From the NCBI RefSeq assembly GCF_024223415.1, contig NZ_CP100500.1: DNA of 64,000 bases, one strand, 5' to 3'. Below the pieces are notes generated by a model. It was given only the letters and a program-made list of their open reading frames with translations. It was not told the DNA's origin and ran no database searches. This document shows, one piece after another, positions 1 through 19,960 of this stretch. A program made the position numbers and the translations under genes. Origin of the DNA: Escherichia coli (GTDB lineage: Bacteria; Pseudomonadota; Gammaproteobacteria; Enterobacterales; Enterobacteriaceae). Each line of letters begins with the position of its first letter. Position 1 is the stretch's first letter.

Positions 1-1
1 A

Positions 2-780
2 TTTAATTCCCGGCAGGCGGTTGAGCGCCTTCCTGGTGAAGATCCGGCTCAACTGAACGATCCGGCTTACCGCCGTCTGCGTATCATTACCGATAACCTC
101 AAACAGGAAGAGCACGCGATTGTCCAGGTGGAAGAAATGCAGGCGGTAAATGCCGTGCTGTATGGCAAATACACCATGGAAGGAGACCAGTTCGAGAAAA
201 TTGAGGTCGATTTTGGCAGGTCGACGAAGAATAACATTACGCAGGCCAGTGGTAAAAAATGGTCTGAGCACGATCGTGACACGTTCGATCCTGCGCATGA
301 TATTGACCTCTACTGCGACCAGGCCAGCGGCCTTGTGAATATTGCCATTATGGACGGTACCGTCTGGCGTCTGCTGAATGGTTTTAAGCTGTTCCGCGAA
401 AAACTGGATACCCGTCGCGGTTCAAATTCGCAACTCGAAACGGCAGTGAAAGACCTGGGGGCGGTGGTGTCTTTCAAAGGGTATTACGGTGATCTGGCCA
501 TTGTGGTGGCGAAAACGTCTTATGTGGCAGAGGACGGTACCGAAAAACGTTATCTGCCAGACGGCACGCTGGTCCTGGGGAATACTGCTGCAGATGGGAT
601 CCGTTGTTACGGTGCCATTCAGGATGCACAGGCGTTGTCTGAAGGAGTGGTGCCTCTTCCCGTTATCCGAAACACTGGCTGACGGTGGGGGATCCCGCCC
701 GTGAATTTACCATGACGCAGTCCGCGCCGCTGATGGTGTTGCCGGACCCGGATGAGTTTGTGGTGGTACAGGTGAAATAA
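2..780 (+). pseudogene. E: Major capsid protein, lambda gpE-like; 5' end lies outside the window; reading frame switches near 641-646
   Basis: Translation from position 2 matches my recollection of lambda gpE (..RRLPGEDPAQLNDPAYRRLRII.., EEMQAVNAVLYGKYTM). The conserved C-terminus (SGASSRYPKHWLTVGDPAREFTMTQSAPLMVLPDPDEFVVVQVK, stop 778-780) is in a different frame from the upstream part, which stops at 680-682. Confidence 0.6.
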
Positions 781-787
781 TCCGTGA

Positions 788-817
788 GCGGGGGCGAAAT
801 GCCCCCGTGTCTTTTTT
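788..817 (+). terminator. Intrinsic-terminator-like hairpin (GC stem 789-795/801-807, then T6) between capsid gene and FI
   Basis: cGGGGGC-gaaat-GCCCCCg followed by gtcTTTTTTc, read directly. Confidence 0.4.
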
Positions 818-831
818 CACAGGGGGCTGAT

Positions 832-1194
832 ATGGCAACGAAAGAGCAAAATCTGAAACGGCTTGATGAACTGGCCCTGATTCTGGGGCGTGAGCCGGAT
901 ATATCCGGGAGTGCCGCAGAGATAGCGCAGCGGGTGGCGGAATGGGAAGAGGAAGCAGAGGACAAAAACCAGGAGAGTGATGAGAACGAAAGGCATTTGA
1001 TGACGTATAGCCACTCCACTGGCGGGGATGAAATGAGCACTGTTCGTGTACTCAAAACCCTGCATGTGGCGGGAAAACATCCGCATGATGACAGTGATAT
1101 GGAGATTGTTGTTACAGGTATGACTGTCAGAGTTGATCCAGTGAATGTTGCGGAACTTGTCCTGGAGGGGCTTGTTACAGATGAAAGTTATTAA
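832..1194 (+). CDS. FI: Head assembly / DNA-packaging protein, lambda FI-like
   Basis: ATG at 832 behind AGGGGG; position between E and FII; C-terminal region resembles lambda FI as I recall it. Confidence 0.55.
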   Translation: MATKEQNLKRLDELALILGREPDISGSAAEIAQRVAEWEEEAEDKNQESDENERHLMTYSHSTGGDEMSTVRVLKTLHVAGKHPHDDSDMEIVVTGMTVRVDPVNVAELVLEGLVTDESY

Positions 1195-1543
1195 TATCAG
1201 GGATAACGGTTTTGATACAGCCATTGCCCGGGCTGATGAAACGATACGCGGGCATATGGGAACGTCAGCCACCATTACATCCGGTGAGCAGCCCGGCGCA
1301 GTAATACGTGGTGTTTTTGATGACCCTGAAAATATCAGCTATGCCGGACAGGGCGTGCGCGTTGAAGGCTCCAGCCCGTCCCTGTTTGTCCGGACTGATG
1401 ATGTGCGGCAACTGCGGCGTGGAGACACGCTGACCATCGGTGAGGAAAACTTCTGGATAGACCGGGTTTCGCCGGATGATGGCGGAAGCTGTCATCTCTG
1501 GCTTGGGCGGGGCGTACCGCCTGCCGTTAATCGTCGCCGCTGA
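1181..1543 (+). CDS. FII: Head-tail joining protein, lambda FII-like
   Basis: AIARADETIRGHMGTSATITSGEQPGAVIRGVFDDPENISYAGQGVRVEGSSPSLFVRTDDVRQLRRGDTLTIGEENFW matches lambda gpFII almost residue for residue. Confidence 0.8.
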   Translation: MKVINIRDNGFDTAIARADETIRGHMGTSATITSGEQPGAVIRGVFDDPENISYAGQGVRVEGSSPSLFVRTDDVRQLRRGDTLTIGEENFWIDRVSPDDGGSCHLWLGRGVPPAVNRRR

Positions 1544-1554
1544 AAGGGGGATGT

Positions 1555-2130
1555 ATGGCCATACAGGGTCTTGAGCAGGCCGTTGAAAACCTCAGCCGTA
1601 TCAGCAGAACGGCGGTGCCTGGTGCCGCCGCAATGGCCATTAACCGCGTGGCCACAACGGCGATTAATCAGTCTTCGTCTCAGGTCGCCCGTGAAACCCG
1701 GGTGCCGAGAAAACTTGTTAAAGAGCGATCCAGACTGAAACGGGCTACGGTCAGAAATCCGAACGCAAAAATTATCGTTAACCGCGGCGATCTTCCTGTG
1801 ATTAAGCTGGGGATCAGGATGCTGGGACGTCGCCCGAACAGCATACTCAAAGCCGGTCAGCATCGTTATCAGCGGGCATTCATCCAGCGACTGAATAATG
1901 GGCGCTGGCATGTTATGCAACGTCTGCCAGAAGCCAGGTATGCGAAGGGCAATGACGATAAGGGAAGGAAAAAGCGTAATCGTCTTCCCATTCAGGTGGT
2001 GAAAATTCCGATGTCGGCCCCACTGAAACAGGCTTTTGATGAGAACGTTAACCGTATCCGACGCGAACGTCTGCCAAAAGAACTGAGCTATGCGCTGAAA
2101 CAACAACTGAGGATTGTGATAAAGCGATGA
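1555..2130 (+). CDS. Z: Tail completion protein, lambda Z-like
   Basis: 191 aa, order and size as lambda gpZ. Confidence 0.75.
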   Translation: MAIQGLEQAVENLSRISRTAVPGAAAMAINRVATTAINQSSSQVARETRVPRKLVKERSRLKRATVRNPNAKIIVNRGDLPVIKLGIRMLGRRPNSILKAGQHRYQRAFIQRLNNGRWHVMQRLPEARYAKGNDDKGRKKRNRLPIQVVKIPMSAPLKQAFDENVNRIRRERLPKELSYALKQQLRIVIKR

Positions 2131-2522
2131 AAAATACTGATATCCGTACAGCCGTACTGGATGCACTGGAGAAGCATGACACCGGGGCGACGTTTTTTGA
2201 TGGTCGCCCCGCTGTTTTTGATGAGGCGGATTTTCCGGCAGTTGCCGTTTATCTCACCGGCGCTGAATACACGGGCGAAGAGCTGGACAGCGATACCTGG
2301 CAGGCGGAGCTGCATATTGAAGTTTTCCTGCCTGCTCAGGTGCCGGATTCAGAGCTGGATTCGTGGATGGAGTCCCGGATTTATCCGGTGATGAGCGATA
2401 TCCCGGCACTGTCAGATTTGATCACCAGTATGGTGGCCAGTGGCTATGACTACCGGCGCGACGATGATGCGGGCCTGTGGAGTTCAGCCGATCTGACTTA
2501 TGTCATTACCTATGAAATGTGA
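2127..2522 (+). CDS. U: Tail terminator protein, lambda U-like
   Basis: 131 aa, 4-nt overlap with Z, same size as lambda gpU. Confidence 0.8.
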
Positions 2523-2529
2523 GGACGAT

Positions 2530-3270
2530 ATGCCAACACCAAATCCTCTGGCACCGGTGAAAGGGGCCGGGACCACCCTGTGGGTTTATAAGGGGAACGG
2601 TGACCCTTATGCGAACCCGCTTTCAGACAATGACTGGTCGCGTCTGGCTAAAGTTAAAGACCTGACGCCCGGCGAACTGACCGCAGATTTCTATGACGAC
2701 AGCTATCTCGATGATGAAGATGCGGACTGGGCCGCGACCGGACAGGGGCAGAAATCCGCCGGAGATACCAGCTTCACGCTGGCGTGGATGCCCGGAGAGC
2801 AGGGGCAGCAGGCGCTGCTGGCGTGGTTTAATGAAGGTGATACCCGTGCCTATAAAATCCGCTTCCCGAACGGCACGGTCGATGTGTTCCGCGGCTGGGT
2901 CAGCAGCATCGGTAAGGCGGTGACAGCGAAGGAAGTGATCACCCGCACGGTGAAAGTCACCAACGTGGGACGTCCGTCGATGGCAGAAGATCGCAGCACG
3001 CTAACAGCGGCAACCGGCATGACCGTGACGCCTGCCAGCACCTCGGTGGTGAAAGGGCAGAGCACCACGCTGACCGTGGCATTCCAGCCGGAAGGCGCAA
3101 CCGACAAGAGCTTCCGTGCGGTGTCTGCGGATAAAACAAAAGCCACCGTGTCGGTCAGTGGTATGACCATCACCGTGAAGGGCGTTGCTGCAGGCAGGGT
3201 CAACATTCCGGTCGTATCCGGTAATGGTGAACTTGCTGCGGTTGCAGAAATCAACGTCACCGCCAGTTAA
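2530..3270 (+). CDS. V: Major tail tube protein, lambda V-like, with C-terminal Ig-like domain
   Basis: [23 protein letters not shown]-terminus; ATG 2530 preferred over the ORF-track start at 2500; beta-rich C-terminal domain. Confidence 0.8.
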
Positions 3271-3285
3271 TCCGGAGAGTCAGCG

Positions 3286-3708
3286 ATGTTCCTGAAAAAC
3301 GAATCATTTGAACATAACGGCGTGACCGTCACGCTTTCTGAACTGTCAGCCCTGCAGCGTATTGAGCATCTTGCCTGGTTGAAAGAGCAGGAAAAAAAGG
3401 CTGAATCCAGTGGCAACCTGCAGGTGTCTGTAGAGGATCTTATCAGAGGCGGGGCGTTTCTGGTGGCGATGTCTCTGTGGCATAACCATCCGCAGAAGAC
3501 AAAGCTGCTGCCCATGAATGAAGCCATTACGCAGATTGAGCAGGAAGTGCTTACCACCTGGCCCACGGAGGCAATTGCTCAGGCTGAAAACGTGGTGTTA
3601 CGTCTGTCCGGAATGTCTGAGTTTGTTGTGAATAATGCCCCTGAACAGGCAGATGACGCCGGGCCTGCAGAGCCTGTTTCTGCGGGAAAGTGTTCGACGG
3701 TGAGCTGA
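3286..3708 (+). CDS. G: Tail assembly chaperone, lambda G-like
   Basis: 140 aa immediately upstream of the tape measure gene; ends just after a GGGAAAG heptamer. Confidence 0.8.
   Translation: MFLKNESFEHNGVTVTLSELSALQRIEHLAWLKEQEKKAESSGNLQVSVEDLIRGGAFLVAMSLWHNHPQKTKLLPMNEAITQIEQEVLTTWPTEAIAQAENVVLRLSGMSEFVVNNAPEQADDAGPAEPVSAGKCSTVS
3684..3690 (+). other. Slippery heptamer G GGA AAG for -1 programmed ribosomal frameshift (G to G-T)
   Basis: GGGAAAG sits 16 nt before the G stop; the -1 frame opens straight into the T reading frame. Confidence 0.65.
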
Positions 3709-4124
3709 GTTTTGCCCTGAAACTGGCGCGTGAGATGGGGCGACCCGACTGGCGCGCCATGCTTGCCGGGATGTCATCCACGGAGTATGCCGACTGGCAC
3801 CGCTTTTACAGTACCCATTATTTTCATGATGTTCTGCTGGATATGCACTTTTCCGGGCTGACGTACACCGTGCTCAGCCTGTTTTTCAGCGATCCGGATA
3901 TGCATCCGCTGGATTTCAGTCTGCTGAACCGGCGCGAGGCTGACGAAGAGCCTGAAGATGATGTGCTGATGCAGAAAGCGGCAGGGCTTGCCGGAGGCGT
4001 CCGCTTTGGCCCGGACGGGAATGAAGTTATCCCTGCATCCCCGGATGTGGCGGACATGACGGAGGATGACGTAATGCTGATGACAGTATCAGAAGGGATC
4101 GCAGGAGGAGTCCGGTATGGCTGA
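3690..4124 (+). CDS. T: T segment of the G-T fusion tail assembly chaperone (made by -1 frameshift, no own start)
   Basis: Open frame overlapping the G 3' end and ending 8 nt into H, the lambda G/T arrangement. Confidence 0.7.
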   Translation: MFDGELSFALKLAREMGRPDWRAMLAGMSSTEYADWHRFYSTHYFHDVLLDMHFSGLTYTVLSLFFSDPDMHPLDFSLLNRREADEEPEDDVLMQKAAGLAGGVRFGPDGNEVIPASPDVADMTEDDVMLMTVSEGIAGGVRYG

Positions 4125-6696
4125 ACCGGTAGGCGATCTGGTCGTTGATTTAAGTCTGGATGCGGCCAGGTTTGACGAGCAGATGGCCAGAGTCAGGCGT
4201 CATTTTTCCGGTACGGAAAGTGATGCGAAAAAAACAGCGGCAGTCGTTGAACAGTCAATGAACCGGCAGGCGCTGGCTGCACAGAAAGCGGGGATTTCCG
4301 TCGGACAGTATAAAGCCGCCATGCGTATGCTGCCTGCACAGTTCACCGACGTGGCCACACAGCTTGCAGGCGGGCAGAGTCCGTGGCTGATCCTGCTGCA
4401 ACAGGGTGGTCAGGTGAAGGACTCCTTCGGCGGGATGATCCCCATGTTCAGGGGGCTTGCCGGTGCGATCACCCTGCCGATGGTCGGGGCCACCTCGCTG
4501 GCGGTGGCGACCGGTGCGCTGGCGTATGCCTGGTATCAGGGCAACTCAACCCTGTCCGATTTCAACAAAACGCTGGTCCTTTCCGGCAATCAGGCGGGAC
4601 TGACGGCAGATCGTATGCTGGTCCTGTCCAGAGCCGGGCAGGCGGCAGGGCTGACGTTTAACCAGACCAGCGAGTCACTCAGCGCACTGGTTAAGGCGGG
4701 GGTAAGCGGTGAGGCTCAGATTGCGTCCATCAGCCAGAGTGTGGCGCGTTTCTCCTCTGCATCCGGCGTGGAGGTGGACAAGGTCGCTGAAGCCTTCGGG
4801 AAGCTGACCACAGACCCGACGTCGGGGCTGACGGCGATGGCGCGCCAGTTCCATAACGTGACGGCGGAGCAGATTGCGTATGTTGCTCAGTTGCAGCGTT
4901 CCGGCGATGAGGCAGGGGCATTGCAGGCGGCGAACGAGGCCGCAACGAAAGGGTTTGATGACCAGACCCGCCGCCTGAAAGAGAACATGGGCACGCTGGA
5001 GACCTGGGCAGACAGGACAGCGCGGGCATTCAAATCCATGTGGGATTCGGTGCTGGATATTGGTCTCCCGGACACTGCCCGGGAAATGCTGGAGAAAGCA
5101 GAAAAGGCTTTTGATGAGGCGGACAAAAAATGGCAGTGGTATCAGAGCCGGAGCCACCGGCGCGGTAAAACCTCAGCATTTCTTGCCAATCTCCGGGGAG
5201 CATGGGAGGACAGAGCGAATGCGCAACTTGGGCTTTCAGCCGCCACGTTGCAGGCCGATCTTGAAAAGGCCAGAGAGATGGCAGCAAAGGACTGGGCCGA
5301 CTCTGAGGCATCACGGCTGAAATATACCGAAGAGGCGCAGAAGGCTTACGAACGCCTGCAGACACCGCTGGAGAAATATACCGCCCGTCAGGAAGAACTG
5401 AACAAGGCACTGAAAGACGGAAAAATCCTGCAGGCAGATTACAACACGCTGATGGCGGCGGCGAAAAAGGATTATGAAGCGACGCTGAAAAAGCCGAAAC
5501 AGTCCGGCGTGAAGGTGTCTGCGGGCGATCGTCAGGAAGACAGTGCTCATGCCGCCCTGCTGACGCTTCAGGCAGAACTCCGGACGCTGGAGAAGCATGC
5601 CGGAGCAAATGAGAAAATCAGCCAGCAGCGCCGGGATTTGTGGAAGGCGGAGAGTCAGTTCGCGGTACTGGAGGAGGCGGCGCAACGTCGCCAGCTGTCT
5701 GCACAGGAGAAATCCCTGCTGGCGCATAAAGATGAGACGCTGGAGTACAAACGCCAGCTGGCTGCACTTGGCGACAAGGTTACGTATCAGGAGCGCCTGA
5801 ACGCGCTGGCGCAGCAGGCGGATAAATTCGCACAGCAGCAACGGGCAAAACGGGCCGCCATTGATGCGAAAAGCCGGGGGCTGACTGACCGGCAGACAGA
5901 ACGGGAAGCCACGGAACAGCGCCTGAAGGAACAGTATGGCGATAATCCGCTGGCGCTGAATAACGTCATGTCAGAGCAGAAAAAGACCTGGGCGGCTGAA
6001 GACCAGCTTCGCGGGAACTGGATGGCAGGCCTGAAGTCCGGCTGGAGTGAGTGGGAAGAGAGCGCCACGGACAGTATGTCGCAGGTAAAAAGTGCAGCCA
6101 CGCAGACCTTTGATGGAATTGCACAGAATATGGCGGCGATGCTGACCGGCAGTGAGCAGAACTGGCGCAGCTTCACCCGTTCCGTGCTGTCCATGATGAC
6201 AGAAATTCTGCTTAAGCAGGCAATGGTGGGGATTGTCGGGAGTATCGGCAGCGTCATTGGCGGTGCTGCCGGTGGTGGCGCATCAGTGTCAGGCGGTACA
6301 GCCATTCAGGCTGCTGCGGCAAAATTCCATTTTGCGACCGGGGGATTTACGGGAACCGGCGGCAAATATGAGCCAGCGGGGATTGTTCACCGTGGTGAAT
6401 TTGTCTTCACGAAGGAGGCAACCAGCCGGATTGGTGTCGGCAACCTGTACCGCCTGATGCGGGGCTATGCGGAAGGTGGTTATGTGGGCGGTGCCGGAAG
6501 TCCGGCGCAGATGCGGCGGGCTGAAGGCATTAATTTTAATCAGAACAATCACGTGGTGATTCAGAACGACGGTACGAATGGTCTGCCAGGTCCACAGATG
6601 ATGAAGGCAGTGTATGACATGGCCCGCAAGGGTGCCCGTGATGAAATTCAGGCACAGATGCGCGATGGTGGTCTGTTCTCCGGAGGTGGACGATGA
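4117..6696 (+). CDS. H: Tail tape measure protein, lambda H-like
   Basis: 859 aa, alanine/glutamine-rich coiled coil, glycine-rich C-terminus; lambda H is about 853 aa. Confidence 0.85.
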   Translation: MAEPVGDLVVDLSLDAARFDEQMARVRRHFSGTESDAKKTAAVVEQSMNRQALAAQKAGISVGQYKAAMRMLPAQFTDVATQLAGGQSPWLILLQQGGQVKDSFGGMIPMFRGLAGAITLPMVGATSLAVATGALAYAWYQGNSTLSDFNKTLVLSGNQAGLTADRMLVLSRAGQAAGLTFNQTSESLSALVKAGVSGEAQIASISQSVARFSSASGVEVDKVAEAFGKLTTDPTSGLTAMARQFHNVTAEQIAYVAQLQRSGDEAGALQAANEAATKGFDDQTRRLKENMGTLETWADRTARAFKSMWDSVLDIGLPDTAREMLEKAEKAFDEADKKWQWYQSRSHRRGKTSAFLANLRGAWEDRANAQLGLSAATLQADLEKAREMAAKDWADSEASRLKYTEEAQKAYERLQTPLEKYTARQEELNKALKDGKILQADYNTLMAAAKKDYEATLKKPKQSGVKVSAGDRQEDSAHAALLTLQAELRTLEKHAGANEKISQQRRDLWKAESQFAVLEEAAQRRQLSAQEKSLLAHKDETLEYKRQLAALGDKVTYQERLNALAQQADKFAQQQRAKRAAIDAKSRGLTDRQTEREATEQRLKEQYGDNPLALNNVMSEQKKTWAAEDQLRGNWMAGLKSGWSEWEESATDSMSQVKSAATQTFDGIAQNMAAMLTGSEQNWRSFTRSVLSMMTEILLKQAMVGIVGSIGSVIGGAAGGGASVSGGTAIQAAAAKFHFATGGFTGTGGKYEPAGIVHRGEFVFTKEATSRIGVGNLYRLMRGYAEGGYVGGAGSPAQMRRAEGINFNQNNHVVIQNDGTNGLPGPQMMKAVYDMARKGARDEIQAQMRDGGLFSGGGR

Positions 6697-7022
6697 AAAC
6701 CTTCCGCTGGAAAGTGAAACCCGGTATGGATGTGGCTTCGGCCCCTTCCGTAAGAAAGGTGCGCTTTGGTGATGGCTATTCCCAGCGAGCGCCTGCCGGG
6801 CTGAACGCTGACCTGAAAACGTACAGCGTGACGCTTTCTGTTCCCCGTTGGGAGGCCACGGCGCTGGAGTCGTTTCTGGCTGAGCACGGGGGCTGGAAGG
6901 CCTTTCTGTGGACGCCGCCTTATGAGTGGCGGCAGATAAAGGTGACCTGCGCAAAATGGTCGTCGCGGGTCAGTATGCTGCGTGTTGAGTTCAGCGCAGA
7001 GTTTGAACAGGTGGTGAACTGA
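6693..7022 (+). CDS. M: Minor tail protein, lambda M-like
   Basis: 109 aa, 4-nt overlap with H; same size as lambda gpM. Confidence 0.85.
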   Translation: MKTFRWKVKPGMDVASAPSVRKVRFGDGYSQRAPAGLNADLKTYSVTLSVPRWEATALESFLAEHGGWKAFLWTPPYEWRQIKVTCAKWSSRVSMLRVEFSAEFEQVVN

Positions 7023-7720
7023 TGCAGGATATCCGGCAGGAAACACTGAATGAATGCACCCGTGCGGAGCAGTCGGCCAGCGTGGTGCTCTGGGAAATCG
7101 ATCTGACAGAGGTCGGTGGCGAACGTTATTTTTTCTGTAATGAGCAGAACGAAAAAGGTGAGCCGGTCACCTGGCAGGAGCGGCAGTATCAGCCGTATCC
7201 CATTCAGGGGAGTGGTTTTGAACTGAATGGCAAAGGCACCAGTACGCGCCCCACGCTGACGGTTTCTAACCTGTACGGTATGGTCACCGGTATGGTGGAA
7301 GATATGCAGAGTCTGGTCGGCGGAACGGTGGTCCGGCGTAAAGTTTATGCCCGTTTTCTGGATGCGGTGAACTTCGTCAACGGAAACAGTGACGCCGATC
7401 CGGAGCAGGAGGTTATCAGCCGCTGGCGCATCGAGCAGTGCAGTGATTTGACAGCGGTCAGCGCGACCTTTGTACTGGCCACGCCGACGGAAACGGACGG
7501 CGCTGTTTTTCCGGGACGTATCATGCTGGCCAACACCTGCACCTGGACCTATCGCGGCGATGAGTGCGGTTATAGCGGTCCGGCGGTCGCGGATGAATAT
7601 GATCAGTCGACGTCCGATATCACGAAGGATAAATGCAGCAAATGCCTGAGCGGCTGTAAGTTCCGCAATAACGTCGGCAACTTTGGCGGTTTTCTTTCCA
7701 TTAACAAACTTTCGCAGTAA
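7022..7720 (+). CDS. L: Minor tail protein, lambda L-like
   Basis: 232 aa with cysteine cluster near C-terminus, as in lambda gpL. Confidence 0.85.
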   Translation: MQDIRQETLNECTRAEQSASVVLWEIDLTEVGGERYFFCNEQNEKGEPVTWQERQYQPYPIQGSGFELNGKGTSTRPTLTVSNLYGMVTGMVEDMQSLVGGTVVRRKVYARFLDAVNFVNGNSDADPEQEVISRWRIEQCSDLTAVSATFVLATPTETDGAVFPGRIMLANTCTWTYRGDECGYSGPAVADEYDQSTSDITKDKCSKCLSGCKFRNNVGNFGGFLSINKLSQ

Positions 7721-7725
7721 ATCCC

Positions 7726-8469
7726 ATGACACAGACAGAATCAGCGATTCTGGCGCACGCCCGGCGATGTGCGCCAGCGGAGTCGTGCGGCTTCGTGGTA
7801 AGCACGCCGGAGGGGGAAAGATATTTTCCCTGCGTGAATATCTCCGGTGAGCCGGAGGCGTATTTCCGTATGTCGCCGGAGGACTGGCTGCAGGCAGAGA
7901 TGCAGGGTGAGATTGTGGCACTGGTCCACAGTCACCCCGGTGGTCTGCCCTGGCTGAGTGAGGCCGACCGGCGGCTGCAGGTGCAGAGTGATTTGCCGTG
8001 GTGGCTGGTCTGCCGGGGGGCGATTCACAAGTTCCGCTGTGTGCCGCATCTCACCGGGCGGTGCTTTGAGCACGGGGTGACGGACTGTTACACGCTGTTC
8101 CGGGATGCTTACCATCTGGCGGGAATTGAGATGCCGGATTTTCATCGCGGGGATGACTGGTGGCGTAACGGTCAGAATCTCTATCTTGACAATATGGAGG
8201 CGACTGGTTTTTACCGTGTCGCACTGACAGAGGCGCAGCCCGGCGACGTGCTGCTGTGCTGTTTTGGTTCATCGGTGCCGAATCATGCCGCCATTTACTG
8301 CGGCGACGGCGGGCTGCTGCACCATATTCCTGAACAACTGAGCAAACGAGAGAGGTATACCGACAAATGGCAGCGACGCACACACTCCCTCTGGCGTCAC
8401 CGGGCATGGCACGCATCTGCCTTTACGGGGATTTGCAACGATTTGGCCGCCGCATCGACCTTCGTGTGA
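7726..8469 (+). CDS. K: Tail tip assembly protein, lambda K-like (JAMM and NlpC/P60-like motifs)
   Basis: HSHPGG motif and a later Cys/His region; overlaps I by about 100 nt as in lambda. An internal start near 7870 would give the 199-aa form. Confidence 0.7.
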   Translation: MTQTESAILAHARRCAPAESCGFVVSTPEGERYFPCVNISGEPEAYFRMSPEDWLQAEMQGEIVALVHSHPGGLPWLSEADRRLQVQSDLPWWLVCRGAIHKFRCVPHLTGRCFEHGVTDCYTLFRDAYHLAGIEMPDFHRGDDWWRNGQNLYLDNMEATGFYRVALTEAQPGDVLLCCFGSSVPNHAAIYCGDGGLLHHIPEQLSKRERYTDKWQRRTHSLWRHRAWHASAFTGICNDLAAASTFV

Positions 8470-9014
8470 AAACGGGAGCCGAAGCCATCCGGGCGCTGGC
8501 CACGCAGCTCCCTGCGTTTCGTCAGAAACTGAGCGACGGCTGGTATCAGGTGCGTATTGCCGGGCGTGATACAGGCGAAAACGAATTATCAGCCCGTCTT
8601 AATGAACCGCTGGCAAATGGTGCCGTGATCCACATCGTGCCGCGTCTGGCGGGAGCCAAACGTGGTGGTGTGTTTCAGGCAGTGCTGGGCGCGGCGCTGA
8701 TTGCGGTGGCATGGTGGAACCCTGCAGGCTGGCTGGGGGCTGCGGCTTTATCGGGCATGTATGCGGCAGGGGCCAGTATGGTGCTCGGTGGTGTGGCGCA
8801 GATGCTGGCACCGAAAGCCAGAATGCCCGGAGTATCAGCCACGGATAACGGCAAACAGAACACCTATTTCTCCTCACTGGAAAACATGGTTGCCCAGGGG
8901 AATGCTCTGCCCGTTCTGTACGGTGAAATGCGCGTGGGGTCACGGGTAATTTCGCAGGAGATCAGCACAGCGGATGAGGGGGATGGCGTCCGGGTTGTGG
9001 TGATTGGTCGCTGA
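8367..9014 (+). CDS. I: Tail tip assembly protein, lambda I-like
   Basis: MAATHTLPLASPGMARICLYGDLQRFGRR and the C-terminal GKQNTYFSSLENMVAQGN..VLYGEMRVGSRV match lambda gpI. Confidence 0.75.
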   Translation: MAATHTLPLASPGMARICLYGDLQRFGRRIDLRVKTGAEAIRALATQLPAFRQKLSDGWYQVRIAGRDTGENELSARLNEPLANGAVIHIVPRLAGAKRGGVFQAVLGAALIAVAWWNPAGWLGAAALSGMYAAGASMVLGGVAQMLAPKARMPGVSATDNGKQNTYFSSLENMVAQGNALPVLYGEMRVGSRVISQEISTADEGDGVRVVVIGR

Positions 9015-9074
9015 TGCAAAATGTTTTATGTGAAACCGCCTCCGGGCGGTTTTGTCGTTTATGGAGCGTGAGGA

Positions 9075-19373: not shown

Positions 19374-19536
19374 AACGATAACTCCGTACATTTGAAAATT
19401 ATCGCCACCTTCAGGTTCCAATCATCATGGTGGCGAACTGTGCGGGGTTGGAACTACCGGGTACGGAAACCGGCGAGCCTTTCGGCTCCCCCACACAGCC
19501 CGCCATAAATCGCGAATGTGACTGTGCAAACGATAT

Positions 19537-19558
19537 GAAAAAAGACGCGGGCGCGTCT
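19537..19558 (-). terminator. Intrinsic-terminator-like hairpin on minus strand
   Basis: Minus strand: GAGACGC-gccc-GCGTCT followed by TTTTTT. Confidence 0.4.
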
Positions 19559-19843
19559 CATATCGCTCCGTAAACATCCGGGGTTCCAATCCCGACGCCA
19601 GATTTTGCTGACGCGTTGGAAATATAGCCCCGGAGGATAAAAACTGTCAACGGGTAAAAAATTTCCGTTATCAGGAATGTATAAAATTAAAGCAATCGAT
19701 CAAAAAATCCTTTCTGCAAAACTAAAAAAGATTTCAATAAAATCAGGCAGTTAAAAACGCTGAAAAACGGTATAAAAAAGCATCTCAAAATCCTGTTTTT
19801 TCTTTCAGATACAATATCTTATTTGATTTTTTAAAACCTGCCA

Positions 19844-19960
19844 GTGTGGTACATGGATATCGATACCACCGCCAATTATAAACTGGGCGGTGCACAGCAA
19901 CATGATAGCGTACGCCTCGATCCGTGGGTGTTTATGTTCTCAGCAGGATATCGTTTTTAA
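19844..19960 (+). pseudogene. ompW: Orphan 3' fragment of ompW (C-terminal about 37 codons); likely prophage-host junction
   Basis: Encodes ..WYMDIDTTANYKLGGAQQHDSVRLDPWVFMFSAGYRF-stop, matching the OmpW C-terminus; in-frame stop at 19832-19834 and no upstream ompW sequence. Confidence 0.6.

What the first reader, a model, noticed from the sequence alone, without database searches (positions are those of the whole stretch)
600..780. Frame switch in the major capsid gene at a short G run
The capsid ORF stops at 680-682, but the conserved gpE C-terminus is encoded in a different frame from about 643 to 780. Restoring one base around 643-646 (gaagg-agtggtgcc) gives a continuous protein ..EGxSGASSRYPKHW.. 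that aligns with lambda ..EGINASARYPKNW... Either the prophage carries an inactivating capsid mutation and is defective, or this is a homopolymer error in the assembly. A second homopolymer-linked frameshift at 19,194-19,201 makes the error explanation worth testing first.
Basis: seen in the sequence. Interest (0 to 1): 0.5.

Follow-up and report, generated by a model that had tools for sequence, protein, structure and literature searches.

The report
One-base deletion truncating prophage capsid gene
A lambda-like prophage inserted in the E. coli ompW gene has lost a single G in its major capsid gene, which cuts off the last 42 conserved amino acids; this is either ordinary prophage decay or a lone sequencing error, and nothing new.

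Summary
The frame switch is real. Window 1-780 is the 3' two-thirds of a phage-21/lambda-gpE-type major capsid gene. Every relative examined reads GTGGTGGCC; the window reads GTGGTGCC, with a single G at 652. The missing base is therefore one G of a GG pair at 651/652, not a base at 643-646 or in a G run. The encoded product is about 309 aa (300 native residues plus PLPVIRNTG) instead of 342. The lost tail, ASSRYPKHW...VVVQVK, is intact in frame 1 and aligns end to end with lambda gpE.

The allele is private: none of 1411 matching complete E. coli records has it, and it is absent from three other collections. There is no slippery heptamer and no relative with a two-frame arrangement, so it is not programmed recoding.

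Several results weigh against a sloppy assembly. The 44 kb of flanking chromosome has no indels against an independent assembly. The nearby G5 run, where other assemblies differ, is normal. The "second frameshift" (T8 at 19194-19201) and a G5/G6 difference at 17311 are both shared with independent genomes.

I favour a recent genuine inactivating deletion (about 0.6) over an isolated consensus error (about 0.37). Only reads or Sanger sequencing can settle this. Interest is low.

The parts
1..682 (+). Major capsid gene (phage-21 gene 7 / lambda E type) as now readable. Frame 2 gives codons 84-300 of the native protein, then 9 out-of-frame codons (PLPVIRNTG) and stop TGA 680-682. The first 83 codons lie upstream of the window.
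   Evidence: The region is 95.4% identical to phage 21 and 99.8% identical to E. coli AR_0085.
647..654 (+). Deletion site. The window reads gtggtgcc where all relatives read GTGGTGGCC; one G of the GG pair is missing, leaving a single G at 652.
   Evidence: Alignment A1. Gap at 651 against all 11 relatives compared. None of 1411 matching E. coli records matches the 90-nt query exactly.
652..780 (+). Stranded 3' end of the capsid gene in frame 1. It encodes residues 301-342 (ASSRYPKHWLTVGDPAREFTMTQSAPLMVLPDPDEFVVVQVK) and stop TAA 778-780.
   Evidence: Aligns with the lambda gpE C-terminus in PDB 7vi9. Pfam PF03864 covers residues 5-341 of the intact protein.
788..818 (+). Terminator-like GC hairpin plus T run just after the capsid stop codon. 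The stem and loop (788-800) are identical in phage 21 and three E. coli relatives; alignment A1 ends at window 800, so the rest was not compared.
832..1194 (+). Intact FI DNA-packaging gene. It is followed by intact FII, Z, U, V, G/T, H, M, L, K, I and J genes (1181-12983).
   Evidence: ORF lengths equal those of genes called in relatives.
18812..19373 (-). ORF6N-domain (antirepressor-like) gene split by an extra A in an A run. The run is T8 on the + strand at 19194-19201, against T7 in most relatives.
   Evidence: PGAP marks the same allele as 'frameshifted' in GF4 and Ch1.
19839..19960 (+). 3' stub of ompW, marking the right prophage/chromosome junction (attR region) of a lambda-like prophage integrated in ompW.
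   Evidence: PMC8112680 reports a 121-bp att for prophages at ompW.

Best explanation
A genuine, recent one-base deletion has frameshifted the major capsid gene of a lambda-like prophage integrated in ompW. One G of GTGGTGGCC was lost, plausibly by replication slippage in the TGGTGG repeat.

Translation now leaves the native frame after residue 300, adds nine unrelated residues and stops. The product lacks the last 42 residues, which are the most conserved part of the gpE-type capsid protein. A protein truncated this way is not expected to fold or assemble into capsids. The prophage would then be unable to make infectious particles on its own, although its visible packaging and tail genes are still intact.

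Shown: the deletion, the truncation, the conservation of the lost segment, and the fact that the allele is private.

Inferred: that the deletion exists in the cell's DNA rather than only in the assembly, and that it abolishes capsid assembly.
For: The deletion and its consequence are shown.

The lost segment is conserved and part of the domain:
- It lies inside Pfam PF03864, which covers residues 5-341 and all 329 model positions.
- It aligns to the end of lambda gpE in PDB 7vi9.
- It is 76% identical to lambda, against 59% for residues 1-300.

The assembly looks accurate:
- Window 19839-64000 has 0 indels and 3 substitutions over 44,162 bp against SCU-316.
- It has 0 indels over 27,332 bp against GPEC1446.

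The other single-base length differences in the prophage are shared with independent assemblies and so are real polymorphisms:
- T8 at 19194-19201 occurs in GF4 and Ch1, on a haplotype identical to GF4 over 17884-19838.
- G5 at 17311 occurs in four other complete genomes.

The context is GG, not a long run. In Ch1 and in an NCTC assembly, capsid-gene indels fall in the G5 run at 686-690, which is normal in the window.
Against: The allele was found nowhere else. It is absent from all 1411 matching complete-genome records, from IMG/VR, from the species-representative genomes and from JGI metagenome contigs. The truncated protein is not on record either.

There is no further decay. The stranded 3' part is identical to AR_0085, and all 13 or so downstream morphogenesis genes are intact. 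That is also what a single consensus error in a functional prophage would look like.

My own rough rate estimates do not separate the two explanations. Three substitutions per 44 kb since the split from SCU-316 predict well under one real indel per prophage. A residual error rate of 1e-5 per base predicts a similar number.

No reads are available.
Confidence: 0.6

Rival explanations
1. It is an isolated consensus or polishing error in the assembly. The real genome would have GTGGTGGCC, an intact 342-aa capsid protein, and a prophage that may be fully functional.
For: A single-base deletion is the commonest residual assembly error. The allele is unique to this sequence. Everything else in the head-tail region is intact, and the flanking sequence is identical to relatives. 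E. coli genomes often hold several copies of this capsid family, up to 5 places per genome, which can confuse read mapping during polishing. Other assemblies do show frameshifts in this very gene: Ch1 and NCTC UARY01, whose capsid product is 317 aa.
Against: There are no indels in 44 kb of adjacent chromosome against an independent assembly. The site is a GG dinucleotide, not a run of 4 or more, and the error-prone G5 run 35 nt downstream is correct. The two other length variants in the prophage are shared with independent genomes. The error-rich comparison assembly Ch1 shows five 'frameshifted' CDS in 39 kb of the same prophage type; the window shows only this one private case.
Confidence: 0.37
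2. It is programmed recoding: ribosomal -1 frameshifting or transcriptional slippage that restores the full-length capsid protein from the two frames.
For: The two frames together encode a complete capsid protein. The same window holds a genuine programmed -1 site, G GGA AAG at 3684-3690 for the G-T tail chaperone.
Against: There is no X XXY YYZ heptamer anywhere in 601-690. No RNA family match was found in 1-1300. Every relative has a single continuous frame: 0 of 1411 records match, as do none of the 11 aligned relatives or phage 21. The shift would also have to occur exactly at codons 300/301 to keep the conserved sequence.
Confidence: 0.01
3. The deletion is genuine and retained because it is useful. 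Examples would be a head-less prophage that still makes tails (on the way to a tailocin), or a truncated capsid protein that poisons capsid assembly of superinfecting phage-21-type phages.
For: Only the head gene is broken, while all tail genes from Z to J and the fibre genes are intact.
Against: The allele is private and therefore very young, so there is no sign of retention by selection. One mutation with otherwise intact genes is what neutral early decay looks like. There is no functional evidence.
Confidence: 0.02

Closest known systems
Phage 21 gene 7 / lambda gene E major capsid protein (Pfam PF03864 Phage_cap_E; solved lambda capsid, PDB 7vi9)
   Same: Window 1-954 is 95.4% identical in DNA to phage 21. 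The repaired protein aligns over residues 1-341 with lambda gpE at E = 3e-134. The downstream gene order FI, FII, Z, U, V, G/T, H, M, L, K, I, J is the same.
   Different: One G is missing, so the gene as written gives about 309 aa and lacks residues 301-342. Phage 21 and lambda have one continuous frame.
Lambda-like prophages integrated in ompW (PPompW; Nakamura et al. 2021, PMC8112680)
   Same: The window has a lambda-like late region whose right end abuts a 122-nt 3' stub of ompW, next to yciE-yciF-trp. The paper reports a 121-bp att in ompW.
   Different: The integrase, attL and early region lie outside the window. The 21-bp internal attB described in that paper is absent from the window. 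The cargo here is a YadA-like adhesin gene, not the type III effector loci that the paper emphasises.
Frameshifted prophage genes flagged by NCBI PGAP in relatives (Ch1 capsid gene; GF4 and Ch1 ORF6N gene)
   Same: These are the same gene families, the same prophage type and the same kind of single-base length change.
   Different: The Ch1 capsid frameshift is at another site, G5 to G4 at window 686-690. The window's site is unique to it.
Programmed -1 frameshift of the lambda G-T tail assembly chaperone
   Same: Both involve two overlapping frames that encode one protein. A real example, G GGA AAG, sits at 3684-3690 in this window.
   Different: The capsid site has no slippery heptamer, and its two-frame arrangement is not conserved in any relative.

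Membership tests
Phage_cap_E (PF03864), gpE-type HK97-fold major capsid protein | Full-length match to the family profile in one reading frame | tested here: not met
   The intact relative L019 matches residues 5-341 to model positions 1-329 of 329. The window's single frame ends after native residue 300, and the remaining 42 residues are in another frame. The locus is a disrupted member (pseudogene) unless the sequence is wrong.
Phage_cap_E (PF03864), gpE-type HK97-fold major capsid protein | Sequence homology to the structurally solved lambda gpE over the whole length | tested here: met
Phage_cap_E (PF03864), gpE-type HK97-fold major capsid protein | Position in the lambda-type head-tail gene order (protease, decoration protein, capsid, FI, FII, tail genes) | tested here: met
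   The downstream half was seen in the window. The upstream half was seen only in relatives with identical capsid N-termini.
Programmed -1 ribosomal frameshift site | Slippery heptamer X XXY YYZ at the frame junction | tested here: not met
   None in 601-690.
Programmed -1 ribosomal frameshift site | The two-frame arrangement is conserved in relatives | tested here: not met
   None of 1411 matching records reaches 99% identity on a 90-nt query, so none matches exactly. All aligned relatives have the extra G.
Homopolymer-type assembly error | The indel lies in a mononucleotide run of about 4 or more | tested here: not met
   GG to G in GTGGTGGCC. The run-length criterion comes from general knowledge of sequencing error profiles.
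Homopolymer-type assembly error | Other indels are present against near-identical independent assemblies | tested here: not met
   0 indels in 44,162 bp against SCU-316 and in 27,332 bp against GPEC1446.
Homopolymer-type assembly error | Reads disagree with the consensus at the site | not testable with these tools
   The source genome and its reads were not found. Exact proteins of the window are not on record.
PPompW-type lambda-like prophage | Integration into the 3' end of ompW with an att of about 121 bp | tested here: inconclusive
   The right junction, with a 122-nt ompW stub, is present. attL and the integrase are outside the window.

The most novel reading that the evidence does not exclude
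The deletion is genuine and the head-less prophage is kept because it is useful. It might be an early tail-only (tailocin-like) element, or a source of a truncated capsid protein that interferes with related superinfecting phages.
Probability: 0.02. Interest if true: 0.5.

Novelty: already known. Interest (0 to 1): 0.08.

Why it matters
It matters little beyond annotation. If the deletion is genuine, this ompW prophage cannot build capsids by itself and should be scored as defective despite an otherwise complete late region. That affects predictions of inducibility and of horizontal spread of its cargo, a YadA-like adhesin gene. If it is an error, the gene should simply be corrected. In either case it is a routine frameshifted prophage gene of the kind NCBI's annotation pipeline flags in related genomes.

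Tried and rejected
1. Finding the source genome or read-level assemblies. Exact-protein look-ups with the reconstructed 309-aa truncated capsid protein and with the window's J, H and L proteins all returned nothing. The FI protein found 23 contigs; every one of those inspected has the intact capsid allele or a different indel.

2. Searching for the deletion allele elsewhere. A 42-mer scan of IMG/VR, species-representative genomes and JGI metagenomes gave 0 hits. The control with the intact allele gave 2 IMG/VR hits.

3. Programmed frameshift. I rejected this because there is no heptamer, no conservation and no Rfam hit.

4. Using the second frameshift as evidence of an error-prone assembly. 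I rejected this because the T8 allele is shared and linked to a haplotype.

5. A third length difference at 17311 (G5 against G6). It first looked private, but four other complete genomes share it.

6. Rate arguments. I estimated expected real indels and expected errors from the 3 SNPs and 0 indels in 44 kb. The two estimates are of similar size, so they do not decide the question.

Full report
**What is in the sequence**

The window opens inside a major capsid gene. Frame 2 reads without interruption from base 2 to a TGA at 680-682. Frame 1 from about 646 to a TAA at 778-780 encodes ..SGASSRYPKHWLTVGDPAREFTMTQSAPLMVLPDPDEFVVVQVK.

Window 1-954 is 95.4% identical to the gene 7-FI region of phage 21. 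Window 1-1200 is 99.0-99.8% identical to 22 complete E. coli genomes. Twenty-one of them span 1201 bases where the window has 1200.

**Where the base is missing**

I aligned window 560-800 with AR_0085, GF60, Ch1 and phage 21. The only difference between the window and AR_0085 over this stretch is one missing G. Relatives read GTGGTGGCC and the window reads GTGGTGCC, with a single G at 652. All 11 further relatives fetched later show the same gap.

It is a GG pair inside TGGTGG, not a G run. The intact peptide is ..SEGVVASSRYPKHW... That peptide lines up residue for residue with lambda's ..REGINASARYPKNW.. (PDB 7vi9), so no extra residue is needed.

**Consequence for the protein**

The N-terminal 83 codons lie upstream of the window, but they are identical in 11 of the 12 relatives compared. 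With them, the encoded product is 309 aa: 300 native residues followed by PLPVIRNTG. The intact protein is 342 aa.

The Pfam capsid-E model covers residues 5-341 of the intact protein. The lost 42 residues are 76% identical to lambda gpE, against 59% for the rest. I infer, but have not shown, that this truncation abolishes capsid assembly.

**Context**

Window 1 to about 19838 is the late (right) arm of a lambda-like prophage. It ends at a 122-nt stub of the 3' end of ompW. The chromosome follows: yciE, yciF, the trp operon, topA, acnA, rnb and fabI. Lambda-like prophages with a 121-bp att in ompW have been described (PMC8112680).

All morphogenesis genes downstream of the capsid gene have the lengths of their intact homologues. 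These are FI, FII, Z, U, V, G/T, H, M, L, K, I, J, the fibre and the fibre-assembly gene. The G-T pair has the canonical slippery heptamer G GGA AAG at 3684-3690.

**Not programmed recoding**

- No X XXY YYZ heptamer occurs in 601-690.
- No RNA family match occurs in 1-1300.
- No relative has the two-frame arrangement. A 90-nt query across the site matched 1411 complete-genome records, and none reached 99% identity, so none matched exactly.

**Real mutation or assembly error?**

The allele is private. It is absent from the complete E. coli genomes, from IMG/VR, from the species-representative genomes and from JGI metagenome contigs. A control scan with the intact allele was positive. The truncated protein is not on record. 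I could not find the source genome or its reads. The decisive test is therefore out of reach.

Four indirect results weigh against an error-prone assembly.

1. Window 19839-64000 differs from the independent assembly SCU-316 by three substitutions and no indel over 44,162 bp. It differs from GPEC1446 by two substitutions and no indel over 27,332 bp.

   - It is a T8 run at 19194-19201, against T7 in most of 149 matching genomes. It splits an ORF6N-domain gene on the minus strand.
   - GF4 and Ch1 have the same T8, and PGAP annotates their genes as frameshifted.
   - The window is identical to GF4 over 17884-19838, while the chromosomal flanks of the two differ at dozens of sites.
   - The allele therefore travels with a prophage haplotype and is most simply inherited.

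3. A G5/G6 difference at 17311 looked private against three relatives, but four other complete genomes share it.

4. Comparison assemblies that look error-rich behave differently.
   - Ch1 has five "frameshifted" CDS in 39 kb of this prophage type.
   - The NCTC contig UARY01000011 has three single-base differences from the window within the first 1.5 kb: the G at 651 that all relatives carry, an extra G in the G5 run at 686, and an extra A at 1445.
   - In both assemblies the capsid-gene indel falls in the G5 run at 686-690.
   - The window's G5 run is normal, and its deletion lies in a GG pair.

Other results keep the error explanation alive. The allele is unique and there is no secondary decay. 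The rest of the module is intact, which is also what one stray error in a working prophage would look like. Multi-copy lambdoid sequence, up to five places per genome, is where polishing goes wrong.

My rough rate estimates, derived, predict similar small numbers of real indels and residual errors per prophage. Rates alone therefore do not decide the question.

I put a genuine recent deletion at about 0.6, an isolated consensus error at about 0.37, and everything else at about 0.03.

**Comparison with known systems, and novelty**

The gene belongs to the phage 21 / lambda gpE capsid family, here in disrupted form. The element matches what has been described for lambda-like prophages at ompW. 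A single frameshift in a prophage structural gene is routine, and NCBI's annotation pipeline flags it in related genomes. Nothing here is new in kind, and interest is low.

**Side observations**

The frameshifted ORF6N gene sits directly downstream, on the minus strand, of strong Rfam matches. These are C4 antisense RNA (19426-19510), IsrK (19538-19614) and, just below threshold, the C4 target sites (19575-19627). From general knowledge, this resembles a P1-immI / Gifsy-type antirepressor control module.

The prophage also carries a YadA-like adhesin gene at 15876-17285 and a sigma-factor-like gene at 17346-17801 (PGAP names).

Noticed in passing
window 18812-19373 (-), run at 19194-19201: An ORF6N-domain (antirepressor-like) gene is split by an A8 run (T8 on the + strand), where most of 149 matching genomes have A7. 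Strains GF4 and Ch1 share the same allele on an identical or near-identical prophage right arm in different chromosomal backgrounds.
   Followed up: yes
window 19426-19627 (-): Rfam matches lie directly upstream of the ORF6N gene: C4 antisense RNA (78.9 bits), IsrK (72.7 bits) and the C4 a1/b1 target sites (44.6 bits, just under threshold). This looks like a P1-immI / Gifsy IsrK-type antirepressor control module at the prophage end next to attR.
   Followed up: partly
window 18726-18769 and 19468-19511; 18705-18747 (-): A 44-nt direct repeat (84% identical) flanks the ORF6N gene. One copy lies in the C4 RNA. The other lies beside a weak fragment resembling a tmRNA 3' end (22.5 bits), which may be a decayed C4 copy or an internal attachment site. 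ARAGORN finds no tRNA, and the 21-bp internal attB of PMC8112680 is absent.
   Followed up: partly
window 17300-17335: A perfect palindrome, CCCGGGGG-agt-CCCCCGGG, lies between the YadA-like gene and the sigma-like gene. The window has G5 where GF4, Ch1 and strain 135 have G6. Four other complete genomes share the G5 form, so it is a natural length polymorphism.
   Followed up: yes
window 788-818: A terminator-like GC hairpin with a T run follows the capsid stop codon and precedes FI. Its 5' part (788-800) is identical in phage 21; the alignment does not extend further. Its function in a late operon read by antiterminated polymerase is unclear.
   Followed up: partly
window 3684-3690: The canonical slippery heptamer G GGA AAG lies at the end of the G tail-chaperone gene, with the T frame open from 3690. 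This is the expected programmed -1 frameshift of lambda-type tails.
   Followed up: partly
window 686-690; L003/L021 (Ch1) and L012/L023 (NCTC UARY01000011): The G5 run 35 nt downstream of the deletion varies in length in other assemblies: G4 in Ch1 and G6 in the NCTC contig. Each frameshifts the capsid gene there. These are probably homopolymer errors in those assemblies. Ch1 has five 'frameshifted' CDS in 39 kb of this prophage.
   Followed up: partly
window 13042-14847 and 15876-17285: The tail fibre gene has long collagen-like Gly-X-Y repeats. A prophage-borne YadA-like trimeric autotransporter gene (C-terminal match to NF033478) has an internal duplicated segment around 16518-16760. Both vary in length between relatives.
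   Followed up: no
window 19841, 48702, 53358: These three substitutions are the only differences from E. coli SCU-316 across 44 kb of chromosome. SCU-316 and GPEC1446 have an intact ompW and no prophage at this site, so the prophage was gained or lost very recently in this clone.
   Followed up: partly
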